Shown here piece by piece: positions 677 to 64,000 of a DNA stretch of 64,000 bases. A program made the translations under genes and the position numbers. The notes below the pieces were generated by a model that was not told the DNA's origin, ran no database searches, and was given only the letters and a program-made list of their open reading frames with translations. How positions within the stretch are numbered: the first letter of the stretch is position 1; the number at the start of each line of letters is the position of its first letter. This DNA comes from Terriglobia bacterium (GTDB taxonomy: Bacteria > Acidobacteriota > Terriglobia > 20CM-2-55-15): the NCBI GenBank assembly GCA_965198225.1, contig CBDAOY010000005.1, forward strand, positions 1 to 64,000, read 5' to 3'.

Positions 677-746
677 GTGTAGGTGCGCTCTATGAGCGCA
701 CCTCGTTTCGGCTTGAAGAATGTGCGGTGATAGACCGCACCTACAC
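677..746. repeat. GTAG-type REP doublet (REPIN-like), copy 1
   Basis: GTGTAGGTGCGCTCTATGAGCGCAC, a spacer, then the inverted arm GTGCGGTGATAGACCGCACCTACAC. The unit recurs at several sites in the window. Confidence 0.85.
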
Positions 747-2615: not shown

Positions 2616-3390
2616 TCATACCCTGTGAAATTCAACCACCAGTTCGGGCCCTTCGCCGTAGCTCTCCCCGGCATATCCACCCCAACGATTGGTCACAGTG
2701 AAGCCGTGGTTCTGGATCAAGGAGACGAACTCATCGGGGTAGTAGCAGCGCATCGCGATTGGCAGAATCGTTTCCTCGACCAGCGCGTTCGCTTCGTAAC
2801 GTGCGATAGATCAGTTCCACGTACAGGATCACCCTTTCGGGCTCGAGCCGCGGCCGCCTGTCGTGACAAGTCATCCGCCGCCCATCGACTGTCACCTCCC
2901 ACTCCTGAGTCTCGTTCAAATCGCACCATTCCCGCTTCATTGCCTCGCGCGATCGATTCGGATTGAAGACGTTGAGAATACATGTGCCTCCGGGGGCCAG
3001 GTGCGGCGCCGACGGAACTGAACAGCCCGTCAACCTGAGTGTCGGTCTCGAGGTTCTGAAGGACGCGAAACGGGGCAATCACCAGATTGAACTGACGCCC
3101 CAGGTCGAAGTCTGCGATGTCTCCTGCTTGAATCGGGCTTGCTGGGCTGGGACGCCGCCTTTGCGAAGTTTTTCGCGGCAGATATCGAGCATAGCAGCGG
3201 AGGCGTCGATGCCATGGATATACCGGCAGAATCCAGTCAGCGGGAATGAGAACCCGGCCCGGTGCCGCACCCAAGCTCGAGGACTTCGGCGTCGGGTGAG
3301 GGAATGCGGGCCCGATAGAAGTCGACGTCCGCCGGACGGTCGGGGTTCACGTCGTAGTACTTTGCCGCTGACGCCCTGGGTGTCGTTCAC
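2616..3390 (-). CDS. Class I SAM-dependent methyltransferase, frameshifted
   Basis: Pieces VLELGCGTGR, HGIDASAAML, GDIADFDLGRQFNLVIAPF and HLAPGGTCILNVFNP lie in successive frames. Confidence 0.75.
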
Positions 3391-3833
3391 CCCGATAATC
3401 CACCCGCCGTTGTCCTCGACCGTTTGGTCCGAGGTTTCTGGAGGTCGAAGATGACGAATGAGGGCGCGCGAAGCTCGTTCGCGAGATCCGGATAACGGTC
3501 ACCTTCCTCCTCGTCGGGTTTCGATTCCCGAATTCCCCGGAGTGCGTATCCCAGCGTCGGAAAGCCGTTGACATAGGTCGCGAGCGTCCGATGAAAGTTG
3601 GTGAGCGGGTGTCCCCGGAACTGCATGATGCGGGCCGACTCGTCAAAGTAGTGGTCGACCCGGAAACGCCATCCGAGAGCCGTCTGGGAATCCGTGATGC
3701 GAGAATTCGTAGAGGTCGCCATCGCTGCGAGATTGCAGACCACGAAGCGCCCCCCGGGCTTGATGATGCGGTAAGAAGACATGATTGCAGCTTCGAGATT
3801 CTCGACATCCACCAGGCTGATGTAGCTGATGGC
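3387..3833 (-). pseudogene. C-terminal half of a class I SAM methyltransferase, cut at its 5' side by a group II intron on the opposite strand
   Basis: AISYISLVDVENLEAAIMSSYRIIKPGGRFVV...FHRTLATYVNGF. The reading frame ends abruptly at the intron boundary 3833/3834. Confidence 0.7.
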
Positions 3834-4738
3834 GCGTGCCTGGCAGCACGCGTTTCCGGCGGTTTAAAGTCCCGCTCGGCCGAGGCCACGGGTCGATATC
3901 CAACAAGTGGGGGTAATGCCTCACTGGGCCGAAGTGTAGACAGGTAGTGCAGATGCCTAAACGGGCACGAAAGCGAAAGCCGGATACGGCCAAGGCAAAG
4001 CTGGGAGCCAGCTACGGAAACTTTGGAGGGCAGGGCGCCCACCGCGAGGTGGGTCTGAAGGGCATGAGGAGAACCACCGGGTCGTAATCGACGGGAGCCC
4101 ATCCCGAGGATGAACCGGTCGGCCAAAGATGGGGAATGGTCGAGCCCGCACTATTGGGGCGAAGGCGCATTGGTTCCACCCCATCGCACCAAGGGTGTGT
4201 GCGGGCGACACGGTGGGAGAAGAGACGCGAGTGACCCAGGGAGGCCTGGTATCGTCCGAGCGGAAGGTAAGGTCGAGATGATGTGGCACCCGCAGACGAA
4301 AGGGCGGCACCGAGAGCAAACATCGACCTAGAGCCCTGCGCGGTAGGTGCGGATATAAGCGAGAGCGAAATTCCGGCCGACGCGGTGTCAGGAATCGGAT
4401 CGGGGAATAGTACTCAGGAACGAGACGGCAAACATAAGGTCTCGGATCGTTGCTTCGAGCAGCGGCGCTGGCGGGTCCAAAAGGCCCGTTGGAGGGGGAA
4501 GTCCCCGTACTCAGTCGTGAATGTGCGAGCGAATGGGAAACGCGGAGATATCGTGAACTTGGATAGTTTCCCTTAGCGAAAGACCCAAACGCGGTACGAA
4601 CGAAGCCGCCACCTGCCGCCACACAGCGAATTCCGAACGAGGAGCAACTGAGGAAAGCGGCTTGCGGGGAAAACCGCACGAGCCGTTGATTGAGCGGACG
4701 GTGGAAGGGCCGATCGGCCCGACCACTTTCGACTCTAC
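3834..4738 (+). mobile_element. ORF-less group II intron (copy C)
   Basis: Starts GCGTG; domain V AAGCGGCTTGCGGG(G)AAAACCGCACGAGCCGTT; domain VI ends CGACTCTAC; short ORF-less domain IV closed by CTCAGT/ACTGAG. Near-identical to 62485-63402. Confidence 0.85.
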
Positions 4739-4941
4739 ACTCAGGAACGAGACGGCAAACATAAGGTCTCGGATCGTTGCTCGAGCAGCGGCGCTGGCGG
4801 GTCCAAAAGGCCCGTTGGAGGGGGAAGTCCCCGTACTCAGTCGTGAATGTGCGAGCGATGGGAAACGCGGAGATATCGTGGAATTGGATAGTTCCCTTAG
4901 CGAAAGACCCAAACGCGGTACGAACGAAGCCGCCACCTGCC
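4739..4941 (+). mobile_element. Second partial 3' half of the same ORF-less intron (copy D), truncated by IS256
   Basis: Directly after CTCTAC the sequence restarts at ACTCAGGAACGAG, repeating 4412 onward, and stops at the IS256 left end. Confidence 0.85.
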
Positions 4942-6328
4942 GAGTTATAACCGAATCTGGTGTTTGGGGCGGTTGAAAAAAAGCGGCGTATCTGGTTGAT
5001 TTGTTGTTTACGAGACTTCAAAGCAACCAAAGGAGATACGCCACTATGAGCAAGAGTATCGTTATTGAACGGGAAGATCGAGAAGCGATTGCAGACCCGG
5101 TGACCGATCTGCTACGAGCCGGGGCTCAACAGCTGATCCAACGTGCTGTGGAAGCCGAATTGGCAGAACTGCTATCCCAGCACGGTGATCGACGAACCGA
5201 GACGGGCAACGCCGGGGTGGTGCGGAACGGTTACCTACCTGAACGCGAGCTGCAGACCGGCCTGGGCCCGGTAACGGTGCAAATTCCGAGGTCCGCGCCA
5301 AGACGGGCGAAGCGGTGACGTTCGGTCGGCTCTGGTACCACCCTACATTCGGAAGACGAAGTCGATGGAAGCAGCCGTGCCGTGGTTGTATTTGAAAGGC
5401 GTCTCGAGCGGCGAGATGGGTGACGCCCTAAGAGTTCTTGTCGGTCCGAAGGCGCAGGGCCTGTCAGCGAGCACGGTATCGCGCTTGAAACAGGTCTGGG
5501 CCCAGGAGTACCGCATCGGGTGCGACCAGCGTCTGGACGCCGACCGCTGGGTCTATGTCTGGGCCGACGGCATCTACAGTGGACTTCGGGCCGAACAAAC
5601 CAAGCTGTGTGCGTTGGTCGTGATCGGCGTGAATGAACGCGGAGAGAAGCGTTTTCTGGCGATTGAAGACGGTGTGGCGGGAATCGACACAGAGTTGGCG
5701 CGAGGTGTTGTTGAAGCTGAAGTCGCGCGGGATGAATATTCCGGAATTGGCGATCGGTGACGGTGCGATGGGGTTCTGGGCCGCACTGGAGGAAATCTAT
5801 CCTGAGACACGCCAACAACGCTGCTGGATGCACAAGACCATGAACGTGTTGAACTGCCTACCCAAGTCGGCCCAGGCGAAAGCGAAACAGGCCCTGCATG
5901 CGATCTGGAAGGCCGAGACAAAAGCAGACGCCGAGAAGGCATTCGATCTGTTCATTGAAACCTATGAGCCGAAGTACCCGAAGGCCACTGTCTGCCTGCA
6001 GAAAGACAGAGAAGAACTGCTGGCCTTTTACGATTTCCCGGCCAAGCACTGGCAGAGCATCCGGACGACCAACCCCATTGAGTCGACCTTTGCCACCATT
6101 CGCCACCGGACGAAGCGATCGAAGGGCTGTCTGACACGGGCTGGCATGCTGCACATGATGTTCAAACTGGGGCAGTGTGCCGAGAAGAACTGGCGACGAT
6201 TACGAGGATTCGATGATCTTGCCAAGGTGATTACTGGAGTGAAATTCAACGATGGGATCGAAGTGGACAACCGTCGATCAGGCCGCCGCTTGAATCAATC
6301 TCCTAAACACCACTTTTGACAATAACTC
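4942..6328 (+). mobile_element. IS256-family insertion sequence
   Basis: Imperfect terminal inverted repeats GAGTTATAACCGAATCTGGTGTTTGG and (reverse complement) GAGTTATTGTCAAAAGTGGTGTTTAG flank a transposase gene. Confidence 0.9.
5046..6319 (+). CDS. IS256-family (mutator-like) transposase, frameshifted
   Basis: RNGYLPERELQTGLGPV, YLKGVSSGEM, YVWADG, QRCWMHK and IRTTNPIESTF are spread over three frames. Confidence 0.9.
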
Positions 6329-11882: not shown

Positions 11883-11950
11883 TGTAGGTGCGCTCTATGA
11901 GCGCACATCATCCGGTTGAGAACAATGTGCGGTCATAGACCGCACCTACA
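11883..11950. repeat. GTAG-type REP doublet, copy 2
   Basis: TGTAGGTGCGCTCTATGAGCGCAC...GTGCGGTCATAGACCGCACCTACA. Confidence 0.85.
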
Positions 11951-12093
11951 ACCATTCTATAGCTCCAGCTCCCGGGTTCTCCGGTGAGCAAATCGTTTGC
12001 CCGGGTGTTTGGTCAGCCCAACCGTCTGGTAACAACGACCAGCGCTGTCCTCGGGTTTCCGCCGAGCAAAATCGTCTGCGGACGCGTGTGGCC

Positions 12094-13735: not shown

Positions 13736-14010
13736 CTAGTGGCCTGTGACCGGAGCTAGCGGTACCAGCGTTGCGGCGGAACGGCACCGGATTCTAGGAG
13801 TCGACGACGAGGTAATGCTCCTACATTGCGAGGAGGAGCGACAACGAAGACGGTGCCGTTCCGCCGCAACCCTCCGGGCCGATGGGGGTTGCCGCCGATC
13901 TCTTTGTCGTTCGTCGTCATGATGAAACCGCATCAACTCCTCCTCTCTCCTCGACCTCGGCTGGCAAGACCCATCGGCGATGGTGCCGATAGCTCCGGTC
14001 ACAGGCCGCT
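13736..14010. repeat. About 270-bp structured MITE-like repeat, copy 1
   Basis: Terminal inverted repeats TGGCCTGTGACCGGAGCTA / TAGCTCCGGTCACAGGCCG; internal GATTCTAGGAG motif. Nearly identical to 51101-51373. Confidence 0.85.
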
Positions 14011-18676: not shown

Positions 18677-18858
18677 GTGTAGGCGCGCTCTATGAGCGCA
18701 CAAATGCCCGCGGGACCGCAAGTTGTGCGGTCATAGACCGCACCTACACGTGAAAAGCCCCGCCAACCGATTCTCCAACAAATGACATTCGTTCACAGCT
18801 TGTATGAGCGCACATCCCTCGACCCGGAACAATGTGCGGTCACAGACCGCACCTACAC
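18677..18858. repeat. GTAG-type REP doublets, copy 3 (18677-18749) and partial copy 4 (18803-18858)
   Basis: Same palindromic arms as 677-746, between convergent genes. Confidence 0.85.
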
Positions 18859-27280: not shown

Positions 27281-27556
27281 CTAGCAGCCCGTGGCAGAAC
27301 TCTGCAGGGTCGCGCGCAGGGGTCTTCGGGTTGCAGGCGCGAAGGGAGGAGCGGAGCGATGATCATTCATCGTGACCGACGAGCGACAAAGCCTGCGGCC
27401 CGACCCCCCCTGCGCCCTTCGGGTTACGGCGAAACGGGGCCGTCTTCGTTGTCGCCGACTCCTCCCAATGAATGAGCATTGTTTCGTCCTCGCCTCCTAG
27501 AATCCGGCCCCGTTTGGCCGCAACGCGGCCCTGCAGAGTTCTGCCACGGCTGCTAG
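27281..27556. repeat. About 270-bp structured MITE-like repeat, copy 3 (opposite orientation subtype)
   Basis: CTAG-CAGCCCGTGGCAGAACTCTGCAGGG...CCCTGCAGAGTTCTGCCACGGCTG-CTAG. Nearly identical to 31547-31823. Confidence 0.85.
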
Positions 27557-28919: not shown

Positions 28920-28988
28920 TGTAGGTGCGCTCTATGAGCGCACGACGTTTCGGTTCGAAGAATGTGCGGTCTTAGATCGCACCTACAC
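28920..28988. repeat. GTAG-type REP doublet, copy 5
   Basis: Same arms as copy 1; contains the ligD stop codon. Confidence 0.85.
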
Positions 28989-31546: not shown

Positions 31547-31823
31547 CTAGCAGCCCGTGCCAGAACTCTGCAGGGTCGCGCGCAGGGGTCTTCGGGTTGC
31601 AGGCGCGAAGAGAGGAGCGGAGCGATGATCATTCATCGTGACCGACGAGCGACAAAGCCTGCGGGCCGAACCCCCCTGCGCCCTTCGGGTTACGGCGAAA
31701 CGGGGCCGTCTTCGTTGTCGCCGACTCCTCCCAATGAATGAGCATTGTTTCGTCCTCGCCTCCTAGAATCCGGCCCCGTTTTGCCGTAACGCGGCCCTGC
31801 AGAGTTCTGCCACGGGCTGCTAG
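31547..31823. repeat. About 270-bp structured MITE-like repeat, copy 4
   Basis: CTAG-flanked; nearly identical to copy 3. Confidence 0.85.
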
Positions 31824-51100: not shown

Positions 51101-51373
51101 AGTGGCCTGTAACGGAGCTATCGGTACCAGCGTTGCGGCGGAACGGCACCGGATTCTAGGAGTCGACGACGAGGTAATGCTCCTACATTGCGAGGAGGAG
51201 CGACAACGAAGACGGTGCCGTTCCGCCGCAACCCTCCGGGCCGATGGGGGTTGCCGTCGATCTCTTTGTCGTTCGTCGTCTTGATGAAACCGCATCAACT
51301 CCTCCTCTCTCCTCGACCTCGACTGGCAAGACCCATCGGCGATGGTGCCGATAGCTCCGTTACAGGCCACTAG
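51101..51373. repeat. About 270-bp structured MITE-like repeat, copy 6
   Basis: AGTGGCCTGTAACGGAGCTATCGG / CCGATAGCTCCGTTACAGGCCACT. Confidence 0.85.
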
Positions 51374-60623: not shown

Positions 60624-62159
60624 ACCGGGTGGCCGGAGGCAGTTGCCCGCCTCCGGCTCCCACAGAACGCAGCGTGCGGATTTCCCGCACTGCGCTCTTC
60701 AGAATTGGATTTACAGCACAGCGAGAGACTGGAACTCCCGATAGCGGAGAGCCAACTTGGGACGCTGTAACGGAAAGTGCAGCTGAATCCGGTTGAATAC
60801 TTCCCACCGGACGAAGCCTGCACGACTACGACTGCTGAGCATTTGGCGCCAGTAACGTTCCACGGCCCGAGCGACGTGCTGCAGAGCCCGGAGGTTCCCG
60901 GCAATGCCATAGTAGGCGTAGTGCCCGCGCAAGACTCGGTTCAGATTGTGCACTTGCTCCCGGACCGGCAAGTGACGCATTCGCCTCATCACGCCGCGTA
61001 GATGAGCCAGACTGCGTCGAAGTCGAGACTTCTCTGTTCGCAGTCCCACTCTAAAATTGCCTTTGCGATTACGCGTACAGTACAGGGTCATGCCCAGAAA
61101 ATAGATCGTCTCTGGACGTTTTCTCCCGCGCCGGACGACATCGCGCTGGGCATAGCGGCCGAATTCGACGAGCTTCGTCTTGGTCGGCTCCGGAACCAGT
61201 CCAAACTTTCCCAGTCGCTTGCGCAGAACGTTCTGGAAACGAAGCGCATCGTCCCGATATTGGAAACACACGACAAAGTCGTCGATGTACCGCACCAGAT
61301 ACGCTTCACCCTTCAGGCGTGGCCGGACCATCCGGTCAAACCACAGGTCAAGCACATAATGCAGGTACAGATTGCTCAGCAGAACGCTGATCGACCCACC
61401 TTGCGGGGTTCCCTCTTCGTTCGAATGCAATTCCCCGTCTTCGAAAACGCCCGCCTTTAACCATCGTCGTATCAGACTGATGATCCGCGGATCTCCGACT
61501 CGATGCTCCACAAAGCGGAGTAGCCATCCATGGTCTAAACTCCCGAAAAAGTTCTTCAAGTCCGCCTCCAACACCCAACTCACCTTGCATCCGGAAATCA
61601 CCTCATGGAGGGTTGCCAGTGCATTGTGGGCGCCCAGCCCAGGCCGGCCACCAAAGGAACAGGGCAAGAAGTCCTGCTCGTAGATGGCGACCAATACCTC
61701 GGCCACGCTGCGCTGAAGGGCCCGATCTTGAACACAGGGCACGCCCAGGGGACGTTTCTCCTGCTTGCCGGGCTTGGGGATATACACCCGCCGAATCGGC
61801 GGAGCGCGATATCCCTTCTGGTGAACAGACTGGAGCATTGGCTCCACCCAGACTCCGAATTCCTCCTTCGCCTCCGGTACCCTCTGACCATCACATCCGG
61901 GAGCCGTGTTGCGGGGCACTTGACACAGGTTCTTCCACACACGCTCTCGGGTGACATGATGCGCCAGTGACGTGAACCGGAGCTTTGGCTCACTCCGAGC
62001 TTTCGCCGCTATTCGTTCCAGTTTCGTTTCCATGACTGGTTGTTCCTCTCGTTGCATAGAGGACCGTATCCTCCCGTTGCATGGAGCTCATGTTTCCCAA
62101 GAACGAGTCCACTTCTGCTGGCCGCTTCCCCATGTGATCGGCTCTCCCGACCTCGGAGT
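60624..62159 (-). mobile_element. RT-encoding group II intron (class E-like), 3' part from mid-domain III to the 3' end
   Basis: Domain V GAGCGCAGTGCGGGAAATCCGCACGCTGCGTTC, domain VI ending CACCCGGT, domain III remainder ACTCCGAGGTCGGGAGAGCCGATCACATGGGGAAG. Confidence 0.9.
60711..62033 (-). CDS. ltrA: Group II intron reverse transcriptase/maturase without an endonuclease domain
   Basis: RFTSLAHH, APGCDG, RVYIPK, RPLGVP, DLKNFF, GTPQGG, RYIDD; domain X LRGHYAYYG. Confidence 0.95.
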   Translation of the reverse strand: METKLERIAAKARSEPKLRFTSLAHHVTRERVWKNLCQVPRNTAPGCDGQRVPEAKEEFGVWVEPMLQSVHQKGYRAPPIRRVYIPKPGKQEKRPLGVPCVQDRALQRSVAEVLVAIYEQDFLPCSFGGRPGLGAHNALATLHEVISGCKVSWVLEADLKNFFGSLDHGWLLRFVEHRVGDPRIISLIRRWLKAGVFEDGELHSNEEGTPQGGSISVLLSNLYLHYVLDLWFDRMVRPRLKGEAYLVRYIDDFVVCFQYRDDALRFQNVLRKRLGKFGLVPEPTKTKLVEFGRYAQRDVVRRGRKRPETIYFLGMTLYCTRNRKGNFRVGLRTEKSRLRRSLAHLRGVMRRMRHLPVREQVHNLNRVLRGHYAYYGIAGNLRALQHVARAVERYWRQMLSSRSRAGFVRWEVFNRIQLHFPLQRPKLALRYREFQSLAVL

Positions 62160-62484
62160 GTAGAGTCGAAAGTGGTCGGGCCGATCGGCCCTTCCACCGT
62201 CCGCTCAATCAAACGGCTCGTGCGGTTTTCCCGCAAGCCGCTTTCCTCAGTTGCTCCTCGTTCGGAATTCGCTGTGTGGCGGCAGGTGGCGGCTTCGTTC
62301 GTACCGCGTTTGGGTCTTTCGCTAAGGGAACTATCCAAGTTCACGATATCTCCGCGTTTCCCATCGCTCGCACATTCACGACTGAGTACGGGGACTTCCC
62401 CCTCCAACGGGCCTTTTGGACCCGCCAGCGCCGCTGCTCGAAGCAACGATCCGAGACCTTATGTTTGCCGTCTCGTTCCTGAGT
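62160..62484 (-). mobile_element. ORF-less group II intron copy A, 3' half (domain III remainder to domain VI)
   Basis: 325-nt repeat of 62485-62809; ends CGACTCTAC directly before the outer intron's ACTCCGAGG. Confidence 0.9.
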
Positions 62485-63402
62485 GTAGAGTCGAAAGTGG
62501 TCGGGCCGATCGGCCCTTCCACCGTCCGCTCAATCAAACGGCTCGTGCGGTTTTCCCGCAAGCCGCTTTCCTCAGTTGCTCCTCGTTCGGAATTCGCTGT
62601 GTGGCGGCAGGTGGCGGCTTCGTTCGTACCGCGTTTGGGTCTTTCGCTAAGGGAACTATCCAAGTTCACGATATCTCCGCGTTTCCCATCGCTCGCACAT
62701 TCACGACTGAGTACGGGGACTTCCCCCTCCAACGGGCCTTTTGGACCCGCCAGCGCCGCTGCTCGAAGCAACGATCCGAGACCTTATGTTTGCCGTCTCG
62801 TTCCTGAGTACTATTCCCCGATCCGATTCCTGACACCGCGTCGGCCGGAATTTCGCTCTCGCTTATATCCGCACCTACCGCGCAGGGCTCTAGGTCGATG
62901 TTTGTCTTCTCGGTTGCCCGCCCTTTCTAGGTCTGCGGGGTGTCTGCGGGTGCCACATCATCTCGACCTTACCTTCCGCTCGGACGATACCAGGCCTCCC
63001 TGGGTCACTCGCGTCTCTTCTCCACCGTGTCGCCCGCACACACCTTGGTGCGATGGGGTGGAACCAATGCGCCTTCGCCCCAATAGTGCGGGCTCGACCA
63101 TTCCCCATCTTTGGCCGACCGGTTCATCCTCGGGATGGCTCCCGTCGATTACGACCCGGTGGTTCTCCTCATGCCCTTCAGACCCCACCTCGCGGTGGGC
63201 GCCCTGCCCTCCAAAGTTTCCGTAGCTGGCTCCAGCTTTGCCTTGGCCGTATCCGGCTTTCGCCTTCGTGCCCGTTTAGGCATCTGCACTACCTGTCTAC
63301 ACTTCGGCCAGTGAGGCATTACCCCCACTTGTTGGATATCGACCCGTGGCCTCGGGCCGAGCGGGACTTTAACCCGCCGGAAACGCGTGCTGCCAGGCAC
63401 GC
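62485..63402 (-). mobile_element. ORF-less group II intron copy B (complete, 918 nt), nested inside copy A
   Basis: GCGTG...CGACTCTAC. Removing it restores GGGAATAGT|ACTCAGG in copy A. Confidence 0.9.
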
Positions 63403-64000
63403 ACTATTCCCCGATCCGATTCCTGACACCGCGTCGGCCGGAATTTCGCTCTCGCTTCCTGACACCGCGTCGGCCGGAATTTCGCTCTCGCTTATATCCG
63501 CACCTACCGCGCAGGGCTCTAGGTCGATGTTTGTCTTCTCGGTTGCCCGCCCTTTCGTCTGCGGGTGCCACATCATCTCGACCTTACCTTCCGCTCGGAC
63601 GATACCAGGCCTCCCTGGGTCACTCGCGTCTCTTCTCCACCGTGTCGCCCGCACACACCTTGGTGCGATGGGGTGGAACCAATGCGCCTTCGCCCCAATA
63701 GTGCGGGCTCGACCATTCCCCATCTTTGGCCGACCGGTTCATCCTCGGGATGGCTCCCGTCGATTACGACCCGGTGGTTCTCCTCATGCCCTTCAGACCC
63801 CACCTCGCGGTGGGCGCCCTGCCCTCCAAAGTTTCCGTAGCTGGCTCCAGCTTTGCCTTGGCCGTATCCGGCTTTCGCCTTCGTGCCCGTTTAGGCATCT
63901 GCACTACCTGTCTACACTTCGGCCAGTGAGGCATTACCCCCACTTGTTGGATATCGACCCGTGGCCTCGGGCCGAGCGGGACTTTAACCCGCCGGCGTGC
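63403..64000 (-). mobile_element. ORF-less group II intron copy A, 5' half (runs off window edge)
   Basis: Repeat of 62810-63390 with a 36-bp internal duplication. Confidence 0.88.

What the first reader, a model, noticed from the sequence alone, without database searches (positions are those of the whole stretch)
62160..64000. Self-targeting ORF-less group II intron whose EBS1 matches its own domain III
Seen: each copy has a stem-loop GCCCGC-ACUAUU-GGGGC in domain I (4150-4155; minus strand 63082-63087 and 63697-63702). ACUAUU is the exact complement of AAUAGU, the six bases before the insertion point of copy B in copy A (63403-63408). Excising B restores GGGAAUAGU|ACUCAGG exactly, and B still carries an empty site (62810-62815), so nesting could repeat. 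A possible EBS2 (UCCCGA, 4102-4107) could pair with the adjacent UCGGGG, but this is less certain. Known: EBS1-IBS1 pairing sets the group II insertion site. Inference: a retroelement that brings a new copy of its own target with every insertion and builds nested arrays. I do not recall this exact arrangement being described, but cannot check the literature.
Basis: partly seen in the sequence, partly recalled or inferred. Interest (0 to 1): 0.9.

Follow-up and report, generated by a model that had tools for sequence, protein, structure and literature searches.

The report
Group II intron nested in itself
A small self-splicing intron with no protein gene has inserted into a copy of itself, which sits inside a larger intron, because its target-reading loop matches a junction these introns carry; such nests are already known, but this target site seems undescribed.

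Summary
On the minus strand, a 918-nt ORF-less group II intron (copy B, 62485-63402) lies exactly inside a second copy (A, 62160-62484 plus 63403-64012). Copy A lies inside an ORF-bearing group II intron (host C, about 60624-64413).

The proposed EBS1 (ACUAUU, intron positions 316-321) caps a hairpin. Its sixth base covaries with exon position -6 across 32 distinct insertion sites: G with C, C with G, U with A or G.

- The element belongs to an endonuclease-less lineage found in several phyla.
- That lineage inserts at the domain III/IV junction of other group II introns.
- Its own junction carries A at -6, a mismatch for the ancestral G allele.
- The ORF-less burst here has a G-to-U change that makes its own junction a perfect six-pair match, and only U-allele copies are nested in themselves.

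Nested arrays, homing into other introns and self-invasion are already published (Methanosarcina, Thermosynechococcus, lycophyte mitochondria). This is a new variant of a known kind. Interest is moderate.

The parts
62485..63402 (-). Inner ORF-less group II intron, copy B (918 nt). The 5' end differs from GUGYG only at base 2, and the 3' end is AC.
   Evidence: fold
63403..64000 (-). Outer copy A, 5' part (intron positions 1-593 equivalent). It continues to C5:64012, 12 nt beyond the window.
62160..62484 (-). Outer copy A, 3' part (positions 594-918: domains IV, V and VI). It is identical to the same part of B.
63082..63087 (-). EBS1 of copy B (U allele), at the apex of hairpin 63077-63093.
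63697..63702 (-). EBS1 of copy A (U allele).
63403..63408 (-). Occupied self target: the IBS1-like last six bases of domain III of copy A, directly 5' of B.
62810..62815 (-). Empty self target in copy B.
62571..62808 (-). Domain IV remnant of copy B, closed by a 5-bp stem that begins one base after the insertion point. It holds the start of the deleted reverse-transcriptase ORF.
   Evidence: positions worked out by hand
62536..62567 (-). Domain V of copy B (32 nt, AGC triad, 2-nt bulge). The matching stretch of copy A is 62211-62242.
   Evidence: read directly; Rfam RF00029 scores only 33.4 bits (cut-off 40) on a sister copy
62485..62535 (-). Domain VI of copy B, with a bulged A seven bases from the 3' end.
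   Evidence: read directly
60624..62159 (-). Host intron C, 3' part. It holds the reverse transcriptase/maturase ORF 60711-62057 (448 aa, no endonuclease domain) and domains V-VI at 60624-60699.
63420..63491 (-). Private 36-nt tandem duplication in copy A.
   Evidence: read directly; family D8
62928..62941 (-). Private 14-nt insertion in copy B.
   Evidence: table 4
3834..4738 (+). Third copy in the window, at a non-intron site with an imperfect IBS1. EBS1 is at 4150-4155.
4739..4942 (+). Extra 3' part (positions 594-798) of a former outer copy, cut off by a transposase remnant.

Best explanation
The region is a three-level twintron. Host intron C sits in the spacer before a PLP-enzyme gene. 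An ORF-less group II intron (A) is inserted at C's domain III/IV junction. A second copy (B) is inserted at the same junction of A.

Inferred mechanism. The ORF-less element is a deletion derivative of an ORF-bearing parent in the same genome, and is presumably mobilised in trans by the parent's reverse transcriptase/maturase. That protein has no endonuclease domain, so priming at replication forks is likely, by analogy with other such introns.

Shown from sequence. The target is chosen by a 6-7-nt EBS1 loop that pairs with the last bases of domain III of other group II introns (RUAGU, then A as the first downstream base).
- The whole lineage does this in several phyla.
- Its own junction has A at -6, a mismatch for the ancestral EBS1, whose sixth base is G.
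- The ORF-less burst here carries U at that position. This gives a perfect match to its own junction and a wobble match to host C.
- As a result, every new copy supplies a fresh target and nests form.

Recombination between the direct repeats of a nest would give the partial forms seen. Expression needs stepwise splicing from the inside out.
For: Anatomy:
- Exact boundaries, with no target duplication.
- Domain V, domain VI and the domain IV stem read directly.
- The parent has a 475-479-aa open frame with RVT_1 + GIIM and TIGR04416, and no endonuclease domain.
- The ORF-less form equals parent positions 1-799 plus 2047-2153.

EBS1:
- The hexamer lies at the apex of a hairpin in the minimum-energy fold.
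- The 4-bp stem is paired in 36 of 36 cells, with one compensatory CG/UA pair; 19 of 500 shuffles reach this.
- The G allele has C at -6 in 23 of 25 distinct sites.
- The U allele has C at -6 in 1 of 6 and A or G in 5 of 6.
- The single C-allele relative has G at -6. Fisher p = 0.0007.

Self sites:
- All 5 inner copies carry the U allele: 4 in this genome, one of them degraded, and 1 in G013.
- None of the 25 G-allele sites is a self site, although 14 of 18 relatives read keep that junction.

Lineage:
- 12 of 14 loci from other phyla have a host domain I-IV Rfam match just upstream.
- 8 of 14 have a host domain V-VI match downstream.
- Host C carries RF02005 at 137 bits and RF00029 at 47 bits.

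Activity:
- Twelve 5' halves are identical.
- An RNA-library contig (run X8, depth 11.7) joins C5:62159 to 64013, which is precise loss of A+B.
- That joined form is absent from the genome: 0 empty C sites.
Against: - No mobility or splicing assay exists.
- The unconstrained fold does not give the canonical six-domain wheel.
- Rfam scores on the element are below the cut-offs: RF02001 at 24.5 bits against 32, and RF00029 at 33.4 against 40.
- There are exceptions to the covariation. Two U-allele copies sit at a site with C at -6. Two G-allele sites lack C: one has G and one has U.
- All 6 standard host-C sites are filled, and host C copies are 100% identical over 1537 nt. Host plus insert may therefore have spread as one unit, so these insertions may not be independent.
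- The RNA joint rests on one contig with a 30-letter side, and could come from DNA of a strain with an empty site.
- Kin share sequence, so the site counts overstate independence.
Confidence: 0.85

Rival explanations
1. Assembly artefact: repeats of a multi-copy element were mis-joined, and no molecule carries a copy inside a copy.
For: The element has about 20 near-identical copies. Public contigs break at its ends, and none bridges the inner junction by 31 letters.
Against: - Nests occur at 6 loci of this 9-contig assembly.
- The two copies of the window nest carry different private indels.
- An independent genome, G013, has the same nest with different haplotypes.
- Contigs of runs X1 and X8 read through the inner 5' junction by 30 letters.
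- The junctions fall exactly on the intron ends at an EBS1-matched site.
Confidence: 0.03
2. The nests come from DNA rearrangement (unequal crossing-over or slipped replication between neighbouring copies), not from retrohoming. The loop/target complementarity is then incidental.
For: Partial forms exist ([1-593][1-918] and [1-918][594-918]), and these need recombination. A given hexamer's complement is expected somewhere in 918 nt about one time in five (my arithmetic).
Against: - Crossing-over between repeats cannot place a whole copy exactly between the last base of domain III and the first base before domain IV.
- The same point is used in at least 8 different host intron families, which share no other sequence around it.
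- The loop base covaries with position -6.
Confidence: 0.04
3. Self-insertion is only a neutral side effect, and the multiple host-C::insert loci arose by movement or duplication of the composite. The EBS1 G-to-U change is then a hitch-hiking mutation without effect on specificity.
For: - Host C copies are 100% identical, and all 6 standard sites are filled.
- The 5' halves of the inserts are identical.
- A five-pair match to the self site already exists for the G allele.
Against: - The inserts inside identical hosts differ in form (single, nested, partial) and in 3' haplotype.
- Self-nests are found only with U-allele inner copies (5 of 5).
- No G-allele copy is nested in itself in three genomes rich in G-allele copies.
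- One nest (C8:158737) and the third window copy lie outside host C.
Confidence: 0.08

Closest known systems
Nested group II introns of Methanosarcina acetivorans (Dai and Zimmerly 2003). I read only the descriptions of it in PMC4424553 and PMC2882425; the paper itself, PMC1370365, is not held.
   Same: ORF-less and ORF-bearing introns home site-specifically into other group II introns. Arrays reach up to five levels, copies are deleted by homologous recombination, and the result is a 'perpetual homing site' with no cost to host genes.
   Different: Archaeal, and according to its title the targets lie in related intron ORFs. Here the organism is a bacterium, the target is the ribozyme's domain III/IV junction upstream of the ORF, and an element enters copies of itself after an EBS1 base change.
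Thermosynechococcus elongatus TeI3/TeI4 twintrons (PMC2882425, passages read)
   Same: ORF-less deletion derivatives are mobilised by relatives' proteins. They insert at one conserved site of other introns, and one ORF-less intron lies in the remnant ORF of another. Good EBS/IBS pairing is seen at the sites.
   Different: The target lies between the two start codons of the ORF in domain IV. There the inner introns are identical and the outer ones diverged; here the hosts are identical and the inserts vary in form. No repeated self-nesting is reported.
cox1i1149g2 of Lycopodiaceae mitochondria (PMC7049729, passages read)
   Same: A group II intron that 'jumped into itself' and also into other sites.
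   Different: An organellar, single ancient event in domain IV, with a degenerate ('zombie') inner copy. No EBS1 allele evidence, and no recurrent recent nests.
RT-active-site-homing lineage: M.a.I5, UA.I3, P.l.I2, B.th.I3 (PMC2504315, passage read)
   Same: A cross-domain lineage without an endonuclease domain whose conserved EBS targets a conserved motif of other group II introns, creating twintrons.
   Different: That lineage targets the DNA that codes the RT catalytic motif. The lineage here targets the end of ribozyme domain III. Kinship between the two lineages was not tested.
Trichodesmium twintron (PMC4649490, passages read)
   Same: A bacterial intron within an intron, with stepwise splicing shown in vivo.
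   Different: Two distantly related ORF-bearing introns at a single locus inside a protein gene, with the inner one in domain I.

Membership tests
Group II intron (ribozyme) | Conserved 5' end (GUGYG) and 3' end (AY) | tested here: met
   The 5' end departs from the consensus only at base 2, and 12 relatives have the canonical 5' end. The 3' end is AC. The consensus itself is recalled, not taken from a call.
Group II intron (ribozyme) | Domain V helix with catalytic triad and 2-nt bulge; domain VI with a bulged A near the 3' end | tested here: met
   Read directly. The bulged A is 7 nt from the end.
Group II intron (ribozyme) | Score over the Rfam gathering cut-off (RF00029 or a domain I-IV model) | tested here: not met
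   RF00029 scores 33.4 against 40 on the sister copy at 4653-4738, and RF02001 scores 24.5 against 32. Relatives' own domain V-VI pass in three loci, L072, L074 and L077.
Group II intron (ribozyme) | EBS1-IBS1 pairing that sets the 5' junction | tested here: met
   Three-state covariation of loop base 6 with exon position -6 over 32 distinct sites. The hairpin stem is supported.
Group II intron (ribozyme) | EBS2-IBS2 pairing | tested here: inconclusive
A scan of domain I found only a segment that is conserved in the Rfam model and is G/U-rich.
Group II intron (retroelement) | Reverse transcriptase/maturase encoded in domain IV | tested here: met
   Parent copies carry RVT_1 + GIIM and TIGR04416 at 392 bits. 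Two open frames of 479 aa are found in the genome. The window copies lack the ORF.
Group II intron (ribozyme) | Splicing at the predicted junctions | tested here: inconclusive
   One RNA-library contig carries the exact host-C ligated junction, which is absent from the genome. It is a single contig, and DNA carry-over is not excluded.
Twintron / nested intron array | A complete intron inside another, same strand, whose removal restores the outer intron | tested here: met
   There are three levels in the window. Four-level arrays occur elsewhere, for example C6:839.4-843.5 kb.
Twintron / nested intron array | Repeated site-specific homing into other group II introns | tested here: met
   At least 8 host site types in this genome, and 12 of 14 loci in other phyla.
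RT-active-site-homing lineage (M.a.I5 group) | Target is the RT catalytic-motif coding sequence | tested here: not met
   The target lies about 125 nt upstream of host C's start codon and 131 nt after its domain I-IV Rfam match.
ORF-less derivative mobilised in trans (TeI3-like) | An internal ORF deletion, with intact parents in the same genome | tested here: met
   Mobilisation in trans itself cannot be tested with these tools.

The most novel reading that the evidence does not exclude
A lineage of endonuclease-less group II introns, spread over several bacterial phyla, is a specialised parasite of other group II introns. Its conserved EBS1 reads the conserved end of ribozyme domain III, so it always lands at the domain III/IV junction. 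Its own junction escapes by a single mismatch at -6. In this genome one transversion in EBS1 of an ORF-less derivative removed that self-avoidance and started a burst of self-nesting copies. This would be a natural one-base specificity switch, and this target and lineage have not been described.
Probability: 0.35. Interest if true: 0.65.

Novelty: new variant of a known kind. Interest (0 to 1): 0.45.

Why it matters
Group II introns are the model for how retroelements choose targets by RNA-DNA pairing, and they are the basis of targetron tools. This case offers a natural allelic series at one EBS1 position (G, C, U), with matching changes in the sites used. It also shows an element whose target is carried by its own kin and, after one mutation, by itself.

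This gives a simple and testable account of three things: how intron-in-intron arrays start, why they grow without harming host genes, and how recombination trims them. It also shows that standard intron finders will miss or mis-split such arrays, because the Rfam thresholds are not reached by the inner element. It does not overturn anything, because the general strategy was described in 2003-2010.

Tried and rejected
1. Shifting the 5' boundary by two bases to obtain a canonical 5' end. Rejected: the empty self site and 7 empty sites of another host family fix the boundaries without ambiguity.

2. It fits only the self site (my hand count on the flanks). My own scan for an EBS2 returned a segment that the Rfam domain I model shows as conserved, so it is not a credible variable guide. 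EBS2 stays unknown.

3. The motif conserved 13-16 nt upstream of the site in this genome's targets. It is absent from the seven non-intron targets of genome G024. I therefore read it as shared ancestry of the host introns, not as recognition.

4. The unconstrained fold of the 918 nt gives domains V and VI but not the canonical wheel. I used it only for local hairpins.

5. Public contigs could not confirm or deny the nest in DNA, because they break at the repeats. The X1 joint that removes B is uninformative, since it equals any single copy. Parts of the stretch without cover in some runs mean nothing.

6. I looked for host-intron signals around two G024 copies and found none: no RT in the flanking ORFs and no Rfam match. 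Those insertions are treated as ordinary sites.

7. Literature. Six searches and the passages read did not show a lineage that targets the domain III/IV junction. Dai and Zimmerly 2003 and Simon et al. 2008 are not held. Michel et al. 2007, 'Specialized lineages', was seen only as a reference. Supplements were not opened. Prior description therefore cannot be excluded.

8. Not done: complex prediction, structure prediction and the wide protein searches, which do not bear on this question.

Full report
WHAT IS THERE

The window is contig C5:1-64000 of a 6.4-Mb, 9-contig genome. Read on the minus strand, the region holds a 918-nt element at 63402-62485, copy B. B lies exactly inside a second copy, A. 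A's 5' part runs from C5:64012 (12 nt beyond the window) to 63403, and its 3' part runs from 62484 to 62160.

- the hexamer loop is at 4150-4155 (+) and at 63082-63087 and 63697-63702 (-);
- its complement is at 63403-63408 (occupied) and 62810-62815 (empty);
- removing B restores in A the junction that B itself carries uninterrupted.

IT IS A GROUP II INTRON WITHOUT AN ORF

- The 3' 83 nt read as a 32-nt domain V with the catalytic triad and a two-base bulge, followed by a domain VI with a bulged A seven bases from an AC 3' end.
- The 5' end differs from the consensus at one base. More distant relatives have the canonical form.
- Rfam does not reach its cut-offs on the element: RF02001 scores 24.5 against 32, and RF00029 scores 33.4 against 40 on the sister copy. 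A default scan therefore sees only the host's domain V-VI.
- Three longer copies elsewhere in the genome carry about 1250 extra bases in domain IV. These encode a reverse transcriptase/maturase (RVT_1, GIIM, TIGR04416 at 392 bits) with no endonuclease domain. Two of them have open frames of 479 aa.
- The short form equals parent positions 1-799 plus 2047-2153, so it is a deletion derivative.

THE HOST

Directly 3' of copy A lies a 448-aa reverse transcriptase/maturase ORF (60711-62057) and a domain V-VI match (60624-60699, 47 bits). Directly 5' of A, beyond the window, lies a 137-bit match to the domain I-IV model RF02005 (C5:64144-64378). Copy A therefore sits inside another group II intron, host C, about 125 nt before C's start codon. 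Host C lies in the spacer before a PLP-dependent enzyme gene. The window thus holds a three-level nest.

THE INSERTION POINT

In the element itself, the point lies one base before a 5-bp stem that closes the ORF remnant and leads into domain V. That makes it the domain III/IV junction. Two other hosts show the same arrangement.

All 20 5' ends found in the genome were read with their flanks. They fall into 10 distinct sites: 8 host site types, the self site and one ordinary site. All end in RUAGU or a one- or two-base variant, and the downstream base is always A. One host family gives 7 empty sites and 1 filled site that differ exactly by the element, which fixes the boundaries independently of the self site.

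IS THE HEXAMER EBS1?

It caps a hairpin in the minimum-energy fold. In an alignment of 14 sequences from six phylum-level labels, the 4-bp stem is paired in all 36 cells, with one compensatory CG/UA pair. That is modest support, since 19 of 500 shuffles do as well.

The stronger evidence is covariation of the sixth loop base with exon position -6:

| EBS1 base 6 | Where found | Base at exon position -6 |
|---|---|---|
| G | parents, genome G024, and 12 distinct sites in other phyla | C in 23 of 25 distinct sites |
| C | one relative (L074) | G |
| U | the ORF-less burst here | A or G in 5 of 6 distinct sites, C in 1 |

Fisher's test comparing G with U gives p = 0.0007. Related sites are not fully independent, so this probability is generous.

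THE WIDER PATTERN

A protein-guided scan of species genomes found relatives at 41-90% identity. They come from MAGs labelled Terriglobia, Desulfobacterales, delta- and Gammaproteobacteria, Nitrospinota, Ignavibacteriaceae, Neomarinimicrobiota and Verrucomicrobia. The 5' 430 nt aligned for 19 loci, and the EBS1 loop is nearly invariant among them.

Of 14 loci outside Terriglobia that I scanned, 12 have a strong host domain I-IV Rfam match just upstream on the same strand, from three different models. Eight have a host domain V-VI match downstream. The lineage as a whole therefore lives at the domain III/IV junction of other group II introns.

Its own junction keeps the same last five bases but has A at -6 in 14 of 18 relatives read. 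That is a mismatch for the G allele. No G-allele copy is nested in a copy of itself in the loci read from G000, G013, G024 and the Gammaproteobacteria MAG. All 5 inner copies of self-nests carry U. I infer that the G-to-U change made the element's own junction a six-pair match and host C's junction a wobble match, and that this started the nests.

HOW RECENT, AND HOW OFTEN

- Twelve 5' halves are identical, including copies in G013 and G023, which belong to other genera. Three genomes of the window's own genus lack the element.
- Self-nesting occurs at 6 loci of this genome. Three are complete: the window, C6:840163-841975 and C8:158737-160383. Three are partial: C4:150750-152235, C5:812868-814096 and window 3834-4942. 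It occurs once more in G013.
- The nests differ in private indels and 3' haplotypes, so they are not copies of one event.
- The partial forms are what recombination between the direct repeats of a nest would leave. This is an inference, and it matches the account of Methanosarcina in PMC4424553.
- Fourteen self sites are still empty.

EXPRESSION

Contigs of four public runs were laid on C5:61953-65512. One contig of an RNA library (X8, depth 11.7) joins 62159 to 64013, which is exact removal of A+B. No such empty host-C site exists in the genome, and no such joint was listed for the two non-RNA runs. This fits splicing at the predicted ends, but it is a single contig with a 30-letter side.

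AGAINST AND OPEN

- All 6 standard host-C sites are filled, and host C copies are 100% identical over 1537 nt. Host and insert may therefore have moved together, which would lower the number of independent insertions.
- EBS2 is unknown.
- Nothing here shows mobility directly.

COMPARISON WITH WHAT IS KNOWN

From passages read:
- PMC4424553 and PMC2882425 describe Methanosarcina arrays of up to five nested introns built by repeated homing into other introns, trimmed by recombination, and giving a perpetual homing site.
- PMC2882425 describes ORF-less Thermosynechococcus introns that insert at one conserved site of other introns, one of them into another ORF-less intron.
- PMC2504315 describes a lineage that homes into the RT catalytic motif of other introns.
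- PMC7049729 describes a mitochondrial intron that jumped into its own domain IV.

The strategy is therefore known. I did not find the junction target, the cross-phylum lineage or the one-base switch in six searches. Three key papers could not be read, and supplements were closed.

VERDICT

The feature is real and well explained. It is a new variant of a known kind, of moderate interest.

Noticed in passing
G000 C5:812.1-818.8 kb, C6:839.4-843.5 kb, C5:605.6-607.3 kb, C5:758.8-760.5 kb: Host intron C is itself inserted just after domain V of yet another intron family (536-578-aa protein) in 4 of its 6 copies. This gives four-level arrays. All C copies share the same five bases before their 5' end.
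   Followed up: partly
L019 positions 2462-2468 (C5:64414-64420): Contigs of runs X2 and X6 continue from host C's upstream flank directly into its downstream flank. The whole 3.8-kb array therefore seems to be absent from some DNA in those samples. This places host C at about 60624-64413 and suggests an unusual first base.
   Followed up: partly
window 3387-6319: The third copy (3834-4738) lies at an ordinary site, antisense to a 141-aa ORF remnant, with an imperfect IBS1. The partial outer copy after it is cut at 4942 by a broken Mutator-family transposase gene (Pfam match on 5633-6316).
   Followed up: partly
window 63420-63491 and 62928-62941: A private 36-nt tandem duplication in copy A and a 14-nt insertion in copy B. 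Both lie in domains II-III and mark the two copies as distinct.
   Followed up: yes
genomes G013, G023 (other genera) and G015-G017 (same genus): Copies with identical 5' halves, and even the same host-C flank, occur in other genera, while same-genus genomes lack the element. This points to recent transfer or mis-binning.
   Followed up: no
whole genome G000: 31 maturase-domain matches and 32 domain V-VI matches, which is an unusually intron-rich bacterial genome. Runs that hold the stretch are labelled sponge metagenome. Word depth on the element is about 20-40 times that of the unique flank.
   Followed up: no
window 678-746, 11883-11951, 18790-18858, 28920-28988; 13751-13997 and 51113-51359; 27281-27549 and 31547-31815: Other dispersed repeat families, among them a 69-nt unit with internal inverted repeats. 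They are unrelated to the introns.
   Followed up: no
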